From Eledone cirrhosa (taxonomy: Eukaryota), in assembly GCA_964016885.1 (NCBI GenBank), contig CAXHJY010001625.1, forward strand, positions 1 through 64,000: DNA of 64,000 nt, in the 5' to 3' direction. Below the pieces are notes generated by a model that saw nothing but the letters and a program-made list of their open reading frames with translations, searched no databases and had not been told where the DNA came from. Position 1 is the stretch's first letter; the number at the start of each line of letters is the position of its first letter. Shown piece after piece: positions 25,986 to 56,277 of the stretch. The position numbers and the translations under genes were made by a program.

Positions 25986-26309
25986 ATTGTTATCATCATT
26001 ATTTTCTTGAATAACCATATGCGATAAGAAGAGAATTTATTTCAAAGTCTAGCGTAACAAGTTATTTTGCTTTAAATCCAGCTGTGTTATTCTACTTAAA
26101 AAGCAATCTGCATCGACTATATCATTAAAATGGAAAATGAACACACACTTTAAGTAGTGTGGTGCTCATTAAGTAGAAGGATAAATCTCAGAAGATACAC
26201 GATATTGCATACTTTTGGATAAAACCCAGTTTAGATTCATATGAACATATAAAGCCATAGATATATCATCAGTGAAACAACCACAGAGACAGTTGGTTAG
26301 CAATATATA

Positions 26310-27148
26310 TCATCATCATCGTCGTTTAATGTCCATTTTCCACGCTAGCATGGGTCTGGACGGGAATTGTCCCACTTGAGGCAAGATTGGTTGTCTTGCT
26401 CAGGACTGTCTGGCGGGTTTTCTACGGCTGGATGCCCTTCCTAACACAAACCACGTTTACAGTGGTGGGGTAGGGTTAGTGGGACGGGTGTGTATTTTGG
26501 TTAGGAGGTGCCTACTTAAGCAAGGCGGGTCTTCTGTATTACTACGTAGCGCCAAAGATCTCAGTTCAGTGACATTGTCTTGGAGAGGTGTAAGTGTGTG
26601 AGGTCGGATTTTATCAAGTCGTCCCAGGTTTTTCTGGGTCTGCCTACTCCGTAGCTACTGTCTATTTTGATCGCCCTGCACTTTTTTATACAGCTGTCAT
26701 CTTTCATGCACATCACGTGACCATACCAACATAGTCTTCTCTCGAGTAAACAGCATCTGATCCCTCTTATTCCTAATTTCTCACTTAGTTCATTTATGCT
26801 TTGCCGTTCGCGTATATTACTATTACACATCCAACGGGGCATGCAAGCTTCGTTCCTCTCCAGTCTGCGTAGATCCTCTGCACACAAGGCCCATGTCTCA
26901 CTGCCATGTAACATCGCTGTTTGTATGCAGGTATCATACAGCCTGCCTTTTATTTTTAGAGAGAAACCTTTAGTGGCCAATAGTGGTATAAGCTCTCTGA
27001 ACTTTGTCCATCCCGTTCGGACTCTAGCTACAGTAATTTCGGAGCACCCGCCACTGCTGATTTTGTCATCCAGGTAACGGAAGGTGTCCACTATTTCTAT
27101 AGAACCATCTGGGCAATGGAATGAGCTAGTATTGTGTGGGCATTTGCA
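26310..27148 (-). mobile_element. RTE LINE 3' fragment (RT C-terminus, 3' UTR and (TGA)n tail)
   Basis: ORF 26561-27199 closely matches ORF 29858-30580 (FRYL.DKISS..ARVR.GW.KFREL..HGSETW..WYGHVM..GRPRKTW). Confidence 0.92.
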
Positions 27149-27249
27149 TATATATATATATATATAAGGTAAACAGAAATGACAAAAATAACAAAACAAA
27201 TGGCACAGTACATGGAAGAAATATATTAGTTTAACACTTGGAATAGCAG

Positions 27250-27296
27250 AAAGATAGTCTTAACGTTTTGGACACTAGCCCATCATCTGAAGATAG
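27250..27296 (-). ncRNA. Degenerate minimal hammerhead-like motif (Penelope type)
   Basis: Minus strand reads TCTT CAGATGA TGGGC TAGT GTCC AAAAC GTT AAGA. Stems I and II are present, with two core substitutions. Confidence 0.4.
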
Positions 27297-27418
27297 TATT
27301 AGAAATAAAAGATAAATAGAAAGTAAATAATGATGAGGAAGGAACAGGAGAAAACGAGAAAAAAAAATTGAGGAGTAAAAAAACGTTTGTATTCAGTCAA
27401 CCATCTTGGAGATATATA

Positions 27419-27592
27419 TCATCATCATCACCGTTTAATGTCTGATTTTCCATGCTTGCATGGGTTAGATGGGTCATCCATATTAAGATACAAATCTGGT
27501 CAGTTGGCAGCATCATACCTTGCTCAAACAGAACTGTATTTTGGCTGGTATTTTTACAGCTGGATACCCTTCCTAATACCAACCACATTTAC
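27419..27592 (-). mobile_element. RTE-tail module (short non-autonomous element or 3' UTR fragment)
   Basis: (CAT)n-CCGTTTAATGTC..CATGCTTGCATGGGTT..CAGCTGGATACCCTTCCTAA, followed by (TA)n. Confidence 0.75.
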
Positions 27593-27598
27593 AATATA

Positions 27599-27675
<77 letters not shown>

Positions 27676-27851
27676 ACATTTCGGGTGGGTTATATTGTTA
27701 TAATATTACCAGAAATAATAATAAAACACACTTACTGTTTGGTTTTGGTTGGTTTCCGCTTCTGTATATTTTATATCCCTATAGTTAATTTAGTTGGCAA
27801 TCAATGTTTATCATTGATTGACCAAACGTTAAAAATATAGATATAAATATA

Positions 27852-30580
27852 TATAAGCTTTTCTGGGTGGGAAATGACAATGGGCTGGGTGGGGTAGGAA
27901 TCATGGTAGCAGAAAAGTGGGCAGATAAGATAATAGACGTAAATAGAGTGAACGACAGAATAATTAAAATAAGACTTGTCCTCAATAAAACTACGGTGAC
28001 AGTAATATCTGCGTACGCACCCCAATCCGGACTGCCCGGCGCTATAAAAGACAGATTCTATGAGACACTGATGCTCGCTACCTCCTGTGACGCAAATAAC
28101 CTAACCATCTGTAACACTAACTTCAAAAAACGAGACAATCACCTGATCACCTATAGATCGGGGGAACACACAAGCCAGGTAGATTATATCCTTACCAGAA
28201 GACGTGACAGAGTGTCTGTTGTTAACACTAAATCCCTCCCCCATGAAGAATGCACCTCCCAACATAGACTGATAATTAGCGACCTCATAGTCAGGACGAG
28301 ACGTACTAGACAGCGGAAGAGGACTATCCTCAGGAGAAAAATATGGAAGCTAAAGGACCCCATAGCCAGAAATAAATTTCAAAGCATATTACTTGATGTA
28401 AGGAAGAGCAATTAGAGTGGTATAATATAGAGGAACAGTGGGAATTCCTGAAAGCAAACCTGCTGACGGCGGCAGACGAAGTCTGTGGCTGGAGCAGGCC
28501 TGTAGGTAGGAGGAGAGTAACATGGTGGTGGAACAGTAAGGTGGAGGAGTCAATTAAGGCCAAAAAGCAGGCTTGGAAAGTATGGCGGGATGGGGGAAGT
28601 AGAGAAGACTATCAAGTGGCCAGGAGGGAAGCTAGGAGACAAGTGTACTTCGCAAGAAGGGAAGCAGAGGAAAGAAAGTTCAAGCATGTTATACAACGTG
28701 AGGACCAAAAACGTGAGGTGTTCAGGATTGCTAGGCAATGTGTCAAGGAAAACCGTGATATTGTCGGGGAGAAGTGTGTACTTAATGATGATGGCATACT
28801 TGCCATCACTGACACTGATAAGAAGGTAGCTTGGAAGTGTCACTACGAAAGGCTTCTAAATGAGAACAAATGGGAGAAAGACAGTCTCCTCCACATCGAC
28901 CCAATAGAGGGACCAGCAGTGTTAGTCGAAGGTAGTATAATAAGTAAGGTAATCAAAGATATGAAGACGGGTAAGGCAGCTGGGCCTTCGGAAATAGTTG
29001 CTGAGATGCTGAAAGCCTCTGGAACGGTGGGACACACCATGGTCACCCGGATAGTAAACCAAGTCATACAGAATGGGGTCGTTCCGAAGGACTGGCATAG
29101 CAGCATCATCATGAACTGTTACAAGGGTAAAAGAGATGCCCTAGATAGGTGTAACTATAGAGGCATTAAATTAATCGACCAGGTCATGAAGGTCACGGAA
29201 AAAGTAATAGCGCAACTAATCAGAGAGAGAATTGATATAGATGAAATGCAGTTCGGGTTTGTGTCAGGAAAAAGTACCACAGACGCTCTTTTCATTGTAC
29301 GACAACTACAGGAGAAGTACCTAGCTAAAAGTAAACCCCTATACTTAGCTTTTGTTGACTTGGAGAAAGCCTTCGACAGAGTCCCCCGTCCCATTATCTG
29401 GTGGGCTCTTAGAAAACTAGGTGTTGATGAATGGCTTGTGAGAGCTATACAAGCCATGTATAAAGAAACAGTCAGCAAGGTTAGAATTAACAACGAATAT
29501 AGTGTAGAGTTTAGCGTAAAAGTTGGTGTCCATCAGGGCTCCGTTCTTAGCCCCCTACTATTTATTATTGCCCTTCAGGCTATAACAGAGGAGTTCAAGA
29601 CTGGCTGCCCATGGGAACTCCTATACGCAGATGATCTAACGCTCATAGCTGAATCAATGACCGAACTAGAGAAGAAATTCCAAACATGGAAGCACGGCCT
29701 AGAATCAAAAGGCCTTAAAATTAACCTGGCTAAGACTAAAGTTCTAGTTTGTAGGAAATAAAATAAGGCGGCGGTCCCTTCCGGGAAATGGCCATGCTCA
29801 GTATGTAGGAAAGGCGTAGGGAGAAACTCCATTTTATGTCCCAAATGCAAAGTATGGGTGCATAAAAGATGTAGTGGGATCACAGGTAAGCTAACTAAGA
29901 ACATAGATTTTACATGTGGCCGGTGCTCTGGTGCAATAAGTAGCAGCAAGTGCCCACAAAATACTAGCTCTTTCAATTGCGCAGAGGGTTCTATAGAAAT
30001 AGTGGACAGCTTCCGTTACCTGGGTGACAAAATCAGCAGTGGGGGAGGGTGCTCTGAAAGTACAGTAGCTAGAGTCAGAATTGGATGGAAAAAGTTCAGA
30101 GAGCTTATACCACTATTAGCCGCTAGAGGGTTCTTCCTAAAAATGAAAGGCAGGTTATATGATGCCTGCATACGAACAGCAGTGCTGCATGGCAGTGAGA
30201 CCTGGGCATTGTGTGCAGAGGATATACGCAGACTAGAGAGGAACGAAGCTTGCATGCTCCGCTGGATGTGCAATAGTAATATACGTGAACGGCTAAGCAT
30301 AAACGAACTAAGGAAAAAATTAGAAATAAGAGGGATCAGATGTTGTTTACTCGAGAGAAGGCTACGTTGGTACGGTCACGTGATGCGCATGAAGGACGAT
30401 AGCTGTATAACAAAGTGCAGGGCAATAAAGATAGACGGTAGCCACGGAGTAGGCAGACCCAGAAAAACCTGGGACGACATGATAAATTCCGACCTCACAT
30501 GCTTACACCTCTCCAAGACAATGTCACTGGACCGAGACCTTTGGCGGTACTCAGTAATAGAGAAGACCCGCCTTACCTAA
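27852..30580 (+). pseudogene. Disrupted RTE ORF: APE endonuclease, RT, PHD-like finger, C-terminal domain
   Basis: EN motifs GVGIMV, SAYAPQ, QVDYIL, SQHRL. RT motifs NYRGIKL, QFGF, FVDLEKAFD, GVHQGSVLSPLLF, YADD. There is a frameshift near 28400, an in-frame TAA at 29759-29761, and the GDFN region of the EN is missing. Confidence 0.93.
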
Positions 30581-31078
30581 ATACAAAGTAAAAACCTACT
30601 ACAGTCAGTAGGCATCTCTATCAAAACACCCCCCCGTCCCACCACCTCCACCTCCACCCACACCGCCCCTTTCAATGTAAAGTTATGTTGGTGCCACAAC
30701 ATCCAGGCCGAAACAAATGAGATCGTGTAGGTGTCACGACAAAAAAAACACAGTCCACGCTGTAATGTGGCCGTGTAGGCAACACGGTAAAAACCTCCCA
30801 GCCCCACACTGTAAATGTGGTTGGTGTTAGGAAGGGCATCCAGCTGTAGAAAACCCGCCAGACAGTCCACGCTGTAATGTGGCCGTGTAGGCAACACGGT
30901 AAAAACCTCCCAGCCCCACACTGTAAATGTGGTTGGTGTTAGGAAGGGCATCCAGCTGTAGAAAACCCGCCAGACAGTCCTATGCGAGCAAGACAACCAC
31001 TCTTGCCTCAAGTGGGAAAACCCCCGTCCAAACCCATGCAAGCGTGGAACACGGACGCTAAACCTTGATGATGATGAT
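27852..31078 (+). mobile_element. RTE-clade LINE, 5'-truncated, with 3' UTR and (TGA)n tail
   Basis: APE-endonuclease and RT reading frames run in order, followed by a 3' UTR ending GGACGCTAAACCTTGATGATGATGAT. Confidence 0.95.
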
Positions 31079-31211
31079 AGACCTTCCCCAAATATTACAA
31101 TATTTGTTTCAACACACGATTTCATATCAAAAACCTTGCAAAACAAATTCATCACCATGTTTATATATATAAATGCATGGAAGATAGACGTTAAATGATG
31201 ATGAGGATGGT

Positions 31212-32677: not shown

Positions 32678-32884
32678 ATGAAGGAAGTGTGGTAAGGAAC
32701 CAGGTGGACCATAACGCACCAGAGTACTCAATACTTAGGGTGGTAGAGTGAGTATTAGGAAAATGTTCAAAACCCCAACGGCAGAGCTCAAGCCATTTCG
32801 ACGGCTATTTCTGGACTATTTCAGTCCAGAAATAGCCGTCGAAATGGCTTGAGCTCTGCCGTCAGAGTTTTGAACATTTTCCTA
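32678..32884 (-). mobile_element. Short repeat-element end with a 62-bp-arm fold-back palindrome containing half a hammerhead
   Basis: 32678-32760 is the reverse complement of ~35341-35425. 32778-32817 and 32823-32862 are perfect 40-bp inverted arms. Confidence 0.8.
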
Positions 32885-32968
32885 TATGATAAATTAACGG
32901 AGCCATAGACTCTCGCTATTCCCTGTCATTAATGTGCTCAAAGGAGAAGGAATCCCGAGCCCTTTATA

Positions 32969-52389: not shown

Positions 52390-55300
52390 CTGCGAGCAGG
52401 GTACAAATTGTTGTCCTTAAATGCTCGCAGTTTATGCATCAAGATACATCTGTTTGAATCCTACGTCAGAAGCATCGACCCTGACTTCATCACAGTCACA
52501 GAAACATGGGCACATTCCTTACTCTGTGATGGGGTTTTCAGCATTACTGGGTACAACCTTTTCCGCAAGGACCGCATTAATCGCCGTGGTGGTGGTGTGA
52601 TGGTCTACGTTCGTTCAAACTTTTCGGTAATTCCTTGCGTTGATTTGAACGAATCACAGGAAGAAGTTTTTTTCTGTGACATACGTATGACCATCTCAAC
52701 ACTTCTGCTTGGTGTTGTTTATCGCCCCCCAAACTACCATCAGGACACACAGCTTTGCGATATCCTCAGAGTTGCTGCCAAGAAAACAGCCACTTATGTG
52801 TTTATTGCAGGTGACTTCAATCATCCTGAGATCGATTGGGAAACCTTTCGTTGGCCACAAGGTGCAACGATTTCCTTGAACTAGTGCTGGACTCAAACTG
52901 GTCACTACTAGTTGTACTACTGAGGAACCTCTAGGCGACTCTGATCATGCTATGATCATTGCCAATCTGGCACTTGAGGGCAGCAACAAAAACCAGAGCC
53001 ATCTCCAATCTGCTTGCTTTGATTGGAAGAGGGCGGATTGGAACTTGTACTGCACTGAGCTACAGCGCCCAAACTGGCATGAGATGTATAACTCTGGAGA
53101 TGTGAACACTATACTCCAGAGCATCCTGGACTCAATATGGATAGCGTGTGCAGCATCGGTGCCATGTAAGCAGAAAAAAAACCACCCCAAAAGTGCAATT
53201 TGGGAAACTTCAGCGGTCCGACTTGTCAGGAAAGAACGTCGGAACGCTGAACGGGAATATAAACTGCATAAATCAGATGCCAACAGAAAAAAGCGGAATA
53301 AATCTTCTAACCATCTCAAGCAAGTGACAAAGAAGGCAGTGCTTGAATTTGAACAGTGCATAGCAACCAATCCTGACAGTAAGGTGTTCTGGAAATATGT
53401 TCATTCAAAGCAGAGGCCTCACTCTCCAGTTGGTCCTCTTCGCAATCCCCACACAAGCCAGATCACTGACGATCCCAAAGAATGCGCAGAACTCATTGCT
53501 GAGTGCTATGCAAGTATTTTTACTGTTGAAAACCAGAATGTACCATCTCCACCATCTCTAACATCAAATTCCATAACAACTATGGAATTTACCTGCAATG
53601 TTGCGACGTCACCTTAAGAATAAGCGTAACTATGCCTCCCCTGGTCTTGATGGTGTTACATACCTGCTTCTCAAACGTGGCGGGTATTTCCTTTTGCGCC
53701 AGCTTTCTTTCTTCTTTCAATACTGTCTCAACAATGGTGCTACTCCGGAGCAGTGGAAAACTGCCATTGTCATTCCCCTGTTCAAAAAGGGCAACCGCAT
53801 GTCACCTGTCAACTATCGTCCAGTCAGTCTTACTAGCTGTATGGCCAAACTGATGGAATCCTGTGTCAGAGAAACACTTTGGAACTTCTGGAGCTCTCAC
53901 AGCCTCATCTGGTCCTCACAGTTTGGATTTATCCCTAACTCCAGCTGCTGTGATCAGCTTATCGAGTTCCTTGAAGGCATCACCCGGATCACTGACAGCG
54001 GCTCATGGGTGGATGTTGTTTACCTTGACTTTGCTAAGGCTTTTAATTCTGTGCCACACAAAAGACTTATGGCAAAACTCTCTGCAATGGGTGTGAGGGA
54101 TGATGTTTTCGACTGGTTGAAATCCTTCATTCTCAGCTGAAAAGAAGTAGTCACGGTTCTAGGACAGCATTCTTCACCATATGAGATGTCATCTGGTGTA
54201 CCACAGGGATCTGTTCTTGGTCCCCTTTTGTTTGTGGCATATATTAATGACATAGATGCCAACTTACAGAATGCCACGGTACTGAAATATGCAGATGACA
54301 TCAAGCTGTACCTTGAAATCAAAAGGACTGATCCTGAAATCTACAACTCTTTCCTACAATCAGACCTGGACACAATGCAGCAATGGATCACAGACTGGCA
54401 ACTGAAGCTGGCTGTGGACAAGTGTACCACCATGCATTTTGGGAGGAAAAATCCAGCGTCCACATACTCCCTCCACAACACTGATATCAAGAAGTCCTCT
54501 TGTGAATGTGACCTGGGCATTACTGTCAGCAGCGATTTGCGTTGGACAAAGCATGTCTCTAAGATTGTCAAGAAGGCTTAGAGTGTCTTGGCATCACTCA
54601 GCAAGACCTTTGTTAGCCGCTCTCCAGCCATCTATTTAAAACTGTATACAGCTATGGTACGACCACACTTGGAATTCGCATCATCAGTCTGGAACCCCTA
54701 TCTTGCTCAGAACATTGACCTCCTGGAAACTGTTCAGAGACGTGCAACCAAAATGAAAACAAAAATATATATATATACAGTTGGCAGCTAGAAGGGATTT
54801 CATCAGGCATCTACCATACTCTGAATGCCTTGCTTCCCTGGGCATGGATTCATTGAAGCTCCGACGTCTGGCAATGGACTTGGTAAATACCCACAAAGTT
54901 ATTAACCATCTCGCCAATTGCAGCCCTGAGCACCTTTTTGATCTCCATGTGTCTAACACACGTGGACATGCCTAGAAAATCAGAAAACAGCACAGCTCCC
55001 ATGACTTTCGTAGACATTTTTTCACGCTCAGAGTTGCTGAAGCATGGAACAAACAGCCTGCGTCAGTTGTTAGCTGCCGAGACACTGCATCCTTTAAGAC
55101 ACTCATGCTTCCCGAAATACGCCAAAACTACACCTGATGTACCCCTTCCATACACATGCTCACGTGTGTATCATGACTCGTGCACTGTTCATTTTCCTGA
55201 TGTTTGTGCATTGCCCTATGTACTGTACATGCACTACTTTTTGATGAGTTGTGGTGCACCTGGGCACTGTACACAACATTTCATTATTATTATTATTATT
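52390..55300 (+). mobile_element. CR1-clade LINE, near-complete ORF2 (EN-RT) disrupted, with an (ATT)n tail
   Basis: EN motifs LNARSL, VTETW, GYNLFRKDR, GGGVMVYV, YRPP, GDFN, SDH. RT motifs SPGLDG, PLFKKG, NYRPVSLTS, QFGF, YLDFAKAF, SGVPQGSVLGPLLF, YADD. There are several stops and frameshifts. Confidence 0.95.
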
Positions 55301-55302
55301 AT

Positions 55303-55552
55303 ATCATGACTCATACACTGTTCATTTTCCTGACATTTGTACATTATTCTATGTACTATACATGCACCTTTGATGAGTTGTAGTGCACCTGAGCACTGTA
55401 CACAATAATTTCATTATTATTATTATTATTATTATAATTGTTTCTACTTTTGGCACAAGGCCAGCAATTATCCCAGTGTATTACTGGTACTTTATTTTAT
55501 CGACCCTGTAAGGATGAAATGTAAAGTTAACTTCGGCGGGATTTGAACTCAG
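55303..55552. mobile_element. Second CR1 3' UTR end (+, 55303-55437) abutting a partial family A SINE (-, 55438-55552)
   Basis: Repeat of ATCATGACTC..GTGCACCTG.GCACTGTACACAA..(ATT)n, followed by a SINE tail and core. Confidence 0.85.
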
Positions 55553-55646
55553 CCTCGGAGGGAATGAATATTACCCAGTTACAAGTATGAAAATAGCTCA
55601 ATGTAGAATAACAAATATACTACAGAGCCAAAATTGTCATTTACAT

Positions 55647-55852
55647 TGTATATATATATCATCATCATCAGGTTTAGCGTCCGTGTTCCACGCTTGCATG
55701 GGTTTGGACGGGGGTTTTCCCACTTGAGGCAAGAGTGGTTGTCTTGCTCGCATAGGACAACCACTCTTGCCTCAAGTGGGAAAACCCCTGTCCAAACCCA
55801 TGCAAGCGTGGAACACGGACGCTAAACCTGATGATGATGATATATATATACA
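55647..55852. repeat. Near-perfect palindrome (97-bp arms, 12-nt loop) made from an RTE 3' tail
   Basis: 55647-55743 versus 55756-55852 with one mismatch. The sequence matches 30983-31078. Confidence 0.95.
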
Positions 55853-55947
55853 TATGTGTGTGTGTGTGTGTGTGTTTATATATATATATATATATATAAT
55901 TGGTGCTGGATGCTTAAAGCGTCCGTATGCGGTAGGCCGTATGAGCA

Positions 55948-56000
<53 letters not shown>

Positions 56001-56019
56001 ATATGTATGTACATATATA

Positions 56020-56232
56020 TCTTATGGTGTGAGTAGGTTATGCCTGGAAGGAAGGTTGGCTGGTAAGAGAAGCAGAGTCCGGCAGCCAAAACGATGGTTT
56101 GATAATGTCAACTTATGGACTGGACTTGATCTTTGCTCTTTAAACTCTGCTGTTGGTGATCGAACTTTGTGGAGAAAAATATCTCATGTTGATGCGCAGT
56201 TTGCAACTGGCGGAGTTTAGCATCAAATCCTT
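56020..56232 (+). mobile_element. 3' fragment of another RTE-like LINE between (TA)n tracts
   Basis: LEGRLAGKRSRVRQPKRWFDNV..W..DRTLWR, typical of RTE C-termini. Confidence 0.7.
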
Positions 56233-56277
56233 CTTATATATATATATATATATAATATATATATATATATAATATAT

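What the first reader, a model, noticed from the sequence alone, without database searches (positions are those of the whole stretch)
55647..55852. 97-bp-arm palindrome from a young RTE tail, with a visible self-priming point
Seen: the arms differ at one base (G-U compatible on the plus strand) and include the (CAT)n tail and flanking (TA)n. The parental sequence (rc of ~30970-31000) continues GTC-TTGCTCGCATAG-GAC-TGTCTGG; here it switches after GAC into the reverse complement, so a GTC/GAC mini-stem primed the fold-back. Established: long hairpins are Dicer and ADAR substrates, and coleoids gained many new miRNAs. Inference: a LINE tail converted in one step into a MITE-like hairpin locus that could yield anti-RTE small RNAs.
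Basis: partly seen in the sequence, partly recalled or inferred. Interest (0 to 1): 0.7.

Follow-up and report, generated by a model that had tools for sequence, protein, structure and literature searches.

The report
Snap-back hairpin from a LINE insertion
A 206-base mirror-image DNA hairpin is the short tail end of a young jumping gene joined to an inverted copy of itself, likely made when the new DNA copy folded back during insertion; it is a rare but recurring accident in this genome, and nothing shows that it has a job.

Summary
The palindrome is as described: 97-bp arms, a 12-nt loop, one mismatch (a CpG transition) and a junction that occurs once in the 3-Gb assembly. It is the last ~100 nt of a young, ~4-kb single-ORF endonuclease-RT (RTE-like) LINE, followed by its own inverted copy. 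It is not alone. Of 47 tail-out pairs examined, 13 have the same fold-back layout, each with a different junction, and 7 more fold back at (TA)n; several also mirror 11-47 nt of host DNA. Best reading (0.62): the first-strand cDNA snapped back during target-primed reverse transcription and the return strand was joined to the (TA)n target. A later DNA-level fold-back is the main rival, because opposite-polarity events exist. The GTC/GAC stem is a 3-nt microhomology with no predicted stability. MITE status fails (single copy). Small-RNA production is untested, and independent reads have not confirmed the locus. Snap-back is known from engineered R2 insertions, and fold-back layouts from Penelope elements; the scan noted Penelope fold-backs in other genomes. 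My searches found no report for natural RTE-like LINE insertions. Modest interest.

The parts
55647..55659 (+). TG(TA)n host target, mirrored on the other side; inferred primer end for reverse transcription
   Evidence: left flank unique in the assembly
55660..55758 (-). Long arm: last ~99 nt of the LINE (3' UTR plus GAT tail), element on the minus strand; the plus strand reads as the inferred first-strand cDNA
   Evidence: 101/101 identical to family copy L012; 102/103 to the window copy 30977-31079
55741..55743 (+). GTC, inner 5' side of the stem
55744..55755 (+). 12-nt loop, unduplicated element sequence
55756..55758 (+). GAC, 3-nt microhomology shared by the element's continuation and the return strand
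   Evidence: MH 3; junction 30-mer single copy
55756..55839 (+). Return arm: sense copy of the 3' UTR end and the GAT tail
55789..55789 (+). Only arm mismatch, CpG to TpG in the return arm
55840..55852 (+). (AT)nACA: either copied target DNA or a target-site duplication in a self-complementary repeat
27852..31079 (+). Long copy of the same LINE family in the window (frameshifted ORF 27852-30577, 3' UTR with a 107-bp duplication, tail); a relative, not the direct parent
   Evidence: tblastn 79% and 95% to the L059 ORF

Best explanation
The hairpin is a 5'-truncated copy of a young RTE-like LINE joined to an inverted copy of itself, likely made in one insertion event when the new cDNA folded back and primed synthesis on itself. 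Shown: the long arm is the element's last ~99 nt; the return arm starts at a 3-nt microhomology and runs back through the tail; the same layout recurs at other loci with different junctions. Inferred: the element's endonuclease nicked a (TA)n tract; its RT copied ~100 nt from the tail and stopped; the cDNA 3' end (GAC) paired briefly with GTC 12 nt upstream; a polymerase (the RT or a host repair enzyme such as Pol theta) copied the cDNA back into the target; and the return strand's (AT)n end was joined to the other target end, which a self-complementary (TA)n tract would ease. It is most likely a functionless by-product.
For: Family: single ORF with endonuclease, RT and PHD domains, copies up to ~4.0 kb and 98-99.6% alike in the young subfamily, 31,835 matches to a tail 15-mer. 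Recurrence: of 47 tail-out loci, 13 have an element-sequence loop of 6-30 nt with near-identical arms and 7 fold at (TA)n; classes were assigned by eye. Arm differences are 14/757 columns in the 13 against 190/2593 in the 27 other pairs. Mirrored host flank that cannot be a direct target duplication: 14, 15, 18, 19, 34 and 47 nt at L044, L036, L034, L099, L041 and L090; none of the 27 other pairs mirrors more than 2 nt of non-(TA)n flank, 25 being scorable. A second, deeper anchor gave 8 more loci, of 50 examined out of 56, with an intact tailed long arm and a shorter return strand, the layout of R2 snap-back junctions (PMC11371274, passages). Microhomology of 3 nt at 4 of 13 junctions against 5% expected (p = 0.003; about 0.02 by hand without this locus). 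The sole arm mismatch at L001, L036, L038 and L090 is a CpG transition, as expected of ageing in vivo.
Against: Polarity is not exclusive. The reverse-orientation search gave 31 pairs. By eye 2 are true opposite-polarity fold-backs that first-strand snap-back cannot make (L124; L136 mirrors ~210 nt including host DNA), and 4-5 more are tight tail-less fusions; 8 against 2 gives only p = 0.055. The stem is not stable. The script scored 3-nt microhomology at 3 of 13; L038 was rescored by eye because loop mutations broke the seed. Five of 13 junctions have none or are unclear. Arm identity partly defined the classes, so that contrast is not independent. No empty target site was found, so a target duplication is not shown.
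Confidence: 0.62

Rival explanations
1. DNA-level fold-back after insertion: an ordinary copy was already there, a break or stalled fork in its 3' UTR left a 3' end that self-annealed, copied back through the tail and rejoined beyond the element.
For: Opposite-polarity fold-backs L124 and L136 exist. L038 and L046 return into element sequence after the fold-back. Self-annealing of resected ends with 2-bp homology is proposed for L1-linked inverted duplications (bioRxiv 10.1101/2024.12.14.628481, passages).
Against: It needs a separate loss of the element's whole 5' part; 11 of 13 loci rejoin to non-element DNA. The polarity count leans 8 to 2 towards the cDNA orientation.
Confidence: 0.22
2. 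Twin insertion: both ends of one break each primed a cDNA from the same young subfamily, and the two cDNAs annealed through GAC/GTC. The product would be the same.
For: Direct head-to-head fusions of two different subfamily copies occur here (L032, L035, L068, L073, L077, L097). Half of the sampled copies (15 of 30) carry this tail variant, so identical arms are not unusual.
Against: Both tails have the same short length; only 1 of 15 sampled copies of the variant has so short a tail. The flanks mirror each other. Those fusions have large length asymmetry, not 12-nt loops. Mirrored unique flank at other loci cannot arise this way.
Confidence: 0.1
3. Library or assembly artefact (fold-back chimera) on a small contig of 76,980 bp.
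For: The window lies on a small contig, and so do L050, L099 and L100.
Against: Two template switches 97 nt apart would be needed; the mismatch is a CpG transition; 9 of the 13 loci lie on contigs C2-C24, and those whose lengths were returned are tens to hundreds of Mb.
Confidence: 0.06

Closest known systems
R2 'snap-back' 5' junctions in PRINT transgene insertions (PMC11371274; PMC11331408; passages read)
   Same: The cDNA 3' end primes synthesis complementary to the cDNA before the 5' junction forms, leaving antisense element sequence joined to the target; low frequency.
   Different: Those are engineered, site-specific R2 insertions in cultured human cells. Here they are natural, assembly-fixed copies of an APE-type LINE, and in several the return strand runs through the tail into host DNA to give a fully symmetric palindrome.
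L1 insertions with fold-back inversion or inverted duplication (PMC10191854, passage; bioRxiv 10.1101/2024.12.14.628481, passages)
   Same: Short inverted duplication at a TPRT site, primed by a small hairpin with 2-bp homology; rare (3 events, 0.3%, in the first paper).
   Different: In the passages read the duplicated DNA is genomic sequence at the target's other end, in somatic cells; here it is mainly the element's own cDNA.
Endonuclease-bearing Penelope-like elements with inverted 5'-truncated copies (PMC3846280, passages)
   Same: Head-to-head inverted repeat with a palindrome at the junction, read as self-priming.
   Different: In Penelope elements it is the usual layout; in this LINE it is about 1 in 2,900 copies (11 loci against 31,835 anchor matches, a lower bound), and the junctions fall at different points.
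LINE-2-derived microRNAs (PMC6433296; search listing and start of abstract only)
   Same: LINE-derived sequence as a possible source of small-RNA hairpins.
   Different: Those have small-RNA evidence; this locus is young, single copy and has none.

Membership tests
RTE-clade LINE (parent element) | Single ORF with APE endonuclease and RT, no separate ORF1 | tested here: met
   986-aa and 1022-aa ORFs with PF03372/PF14529 and PF00078; the coding frame begins ~200 nt from the 5' end of the longest copy
RTE-clade LINE (parent element) | Short (3-4 kb), 5'-truncated copies, tail of short tandem repeats | tested here: met
   Copies of 163 to 4,055 nt with a (GAT)n tail
RTE-clade LINE (parent element) | RT groups with named RTE elements in a tree | not tested
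   The 120 listed homologues carried no clade name and no named references were on hand. A PHD finger follows the RT core; the published octopus RTE-2_OV has a C2H2 finger instead (PMC9115989, passages).
cDNA snap-back insertion | Tailed long arm plus inverted copy of its own end, joined to target DNA | tested here: met
cDNA snap-back insertion | Formed during insertion (empty site converts directly; strict polarity) | tested here: inconclusive
   No empty site in the assembly; polarity 8 to 2, p = 0.055
MITE | Many copies of one unit with the same ends | tested here: not met
   Junction 30-mer found once; other loci have different junctions
MITE | Termini derived from a DNA transposon | tested here: not met
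   Arms are LINE 3' UTR and tail
miRNA or endo-siRNA hairpin locus | Forms a long hairpin if transcribed | tested here: met
   (prediction only)
miRNA or endo-siRNA hairpin locus | Transcribed and processed into small RNAs with defined ends | not testable with these tools
   No small-RNA reads on hand; Rfam matches all below gathering score, best 42.1 against 92 bits

The most novel reading that the evidence does not exclude
Microsatellite-targeting RTE-like LINEs routinely survive cDNA snap-back because a self-complementary (TA)n target lets the return strand pair with the far end of the break. The genome thus keeps a dated natural archive of second-strand self-priming in germline LINE insertion, and gains perfect hairpins of the family's conserved 3' tail, some of which are transcribed and feed small RNAs or ADAR against tens of thousands of copies.
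Probability: 0.1. Interest if true: 0.65.

Novelty: new variant of a known kind. Interest (0 to 1): 0.33.

Why it matters
How LINEs finish insertion (5' joining and second-strand synthesis) is still open, and snap-back has mainly been seen in engineered R2 insertions. A set of natural, aged examples with different junctions makes the step countable: loop size, microhomology, how far the return strand runs, and whether self-complementary targets favour it. It is also a one-step route from a LINE tail to a perfect RNA hairpin. The single locus has no shown function.

Tried and rejected
Read support. Logan contigs of runs X1-X4 (at most 2 samples, 1 study) were laid on 55000-56250 (swamped by repeat contigs) and on 55726-55788 at 100% identity. 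No listed piece spans the loop junction; listed pieces cover at most 33 nt and fit family sequence. The table was cut, records are filtered, contigs drop rare branches, and the samples may not be the assembled animal, so this shows neither presence nor absence. A DNA search of the own genome with the arm returned nothing because common words are skipped. No empty-site paralogue was found. A check of 25 ordinary copies with visible 5' ends found no snap-back; the 2 flagged inversions are old, 68-77% identical neighbours. The homologue search gave no clade name. PMC3849965 was irrelevant. PMC13282606 has no 'palindrom' or 'hairpin' in its main text. ADAR editing as the cause of the mismatch was rejected (C>T at a CpG, in the arm that departs from the family). 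ORFs in L102 and L108 did not identify the second palindrome family. A stable pre-formed cDNA hairpin was rejected.

Full report
Observation. The palindrome is real in the sequence: arms 55647-55743 and 55756-55852, 97 bp with one mismatch, loop 12 nt; as RNA it folds at z = -27.8. The window is C1652:1-64000 of a 76,980-bp contig in a 3.0-Gb assembly. That the animal is an octopus rests on my recall of this tail motif and on unchecked scan notes, not on a call. The junction 30-mer and the left flank each occur once.

Parent element. A 31-mer of the arm has 4,906 + 4,916 exact matches and a 15-mer 15,903 + 15,932. Ten longer stretches show 5'-truncated copies up to about 4.0 kb, 98-99.6% alike in the young subfamily. 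The ORF (986 aa in L059, 1022 aa in L065) has endonuclease, RT and PHD domains, then a 3' UTR of about 485 nt and a (GAT)n tail. This is RTE-like architecture; clade placement by tree was not done, and homologues bore no clade names. RTE LINEs are reported as active in octopus (PMC9115989 and PMC13282606, passages). The window's own long copy (27852-31079) is a relative with one extra base; L012 matches the long arm 101/101.

Anatomy. On the plus strand the locus reads: TG(TA)n, the element's antisense from the tail for 99 nt to GAC, then the reverse complement from the GTC 12 nt upstream back through the tail, then (AT)nACA and unrelated flank. GAC fits both the family's continuation and the stem. 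Folded as DNA, the 24-nt end is unstructured and the 99-nt arm is no better than shuffles, so this is a transient microhomology, not a built-in hairpin. The one mismatch is CpG to TpG in the return arm.

Recurrence. Two gapped searches for tail-out pairs gave 21 matches at 20 loci (gap up to 300) and 43 (gap up to 500), 47 loci in all, each inspected. By eye: 13 have an element-sequence loop of 6-30 nt (L001, L036, L038, L039, L042, L044, L046-L050, L099, L100); 7 fold at (TA)n or host DNA (L034, L040, L041, L043, L074, L089, L090); 27 are pairs of different copies. Arm differences are 1.9%, 3.3% and 7.3%, though arm likeness helped define the classes. Six loci mirror 14-47 nt of flank that is not self-complementary, L090 with 47 nt of unique DNA; independent insertions do not explain that. 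Three-base microhomology occurs at 4 of 13 junctions (3 by script, L038 by eye; p = 0.003 against 5%), one base at 4, none or unclear at 5. With the first anchor the rate is 11 in 31,835, a lower bound. Tail-to-tail pairs are about ten times commoner (246) and, in the 50 listed, look like separate insertions into shared (TA)n tracts.

Polarity control. With a deeper anchor, shared with other repeat families, there were 56 tail-out pairs (50 examined) and 31 tail-in pairs (all examined). Eight tail-out loci have an intact tailed arm and a shorter return strand. Among tail-in pairs two (L124, L136) look like true fold-backs of the opposite polarity, and four or five look like tail-to-tail pairs fused by central loss. 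Eight against two gives p = 0.055. This leans towards cDNA snap-back but shows that DNA-level fold-back also happens here.

Mechanism. Most likely (0.62) reverse transcription primed at a (TA)n nick stopped after about 100 nt, the cDNA end self-primed, a polymerase copied back into the target, and the (AT)n end joined the far side of the break. The enzyme, the timing and the role of the self-complementary target are inferred. Rivals: fold-back after insertion (0.22), twin insertion (0.10), artefact (0.06). Independent reads have not confirmed the locus.

Known systems. Snap-back 5' junctions are defined for engineered R2 insertions (PMC11371274 and PMC11331408, passages). L1 insertions carry rare fold-back duplications of target DNA (PMC10191854, passage; bioRxiv 10.1101/2024.12.14.628481, passages). 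Penelope elements show head-to-head palindromes read as self-priming (PMC3846280, passages). Five searches (listings only, apart from the papers named) showed no report for natural RTE-like insertions; the library lacks most subscription papers and no supplements were read, so absence from print is not established.

Function. The locus is single copy, so it is not a MITE. No Rfam family reaches its gathering score, and the ORF scan nearby showed only LINE pieces and low-complexity frames. If transcribed it would be a perfect double-stranded RNA (established knowledge of Dicer and ADAR substrates), but 246 tail-to-tail pairs could supply such RNA too. The small-RNA idea stays untested.

Verdict. 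New variant of a known kind, interest 0.33.

Noticed in passing
window 32757-32885 (perfect core 32778-32862): A second palindrome from another family (911 matches to a 27-mer). Fold-back is common there: 4 of 8 fetched loci are hairpins, each with a different apex, one arm ending at (TA)n and the other running on. The layout resembles Penelope-like elements; identity not shown.
   Followed up: partly
L032, L035, L068, L073, L077, L097: Two different subfamily copies fused directly 5' end to 5' end with tails outward: possible simultaneous insertions at both ends of one break, or insertion with target deletion.
   Followed up: partly
L038 (C3:200380974) and L046 (C20:10644897): Fold-back followed by a return to the element's own continuation; L046 has several alternating arms, suggesting repeated template switching.
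   Followed up: partly
L136 (C7:74877636): Tail-less inverted duplication of about 280 bp per arm that includes host flank; opposite polarity to cDNA snap-back.
   Followed up: partly
L059:4196-7153: The LINE ORF carries a PHD finger right after the RT core, also annotated in many unnamed homologues at 44-54% identity.
   Followed up: no
window 30764-30977; L002, L003, L012: The youngest subfamily carries a 107-bp tandem duplication in its 3' UTR.
   Followed up: no
window 1 to about 15000: A 31-bp satellite array, about 480 copies.
   Followed up: no
window 26303-31079: The young LINE copy (plus strand) lies next to an older copy in the opposite orientation, giving a 547-bp, 88% inverted repeat 3 kb apart.
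   Followed up: no
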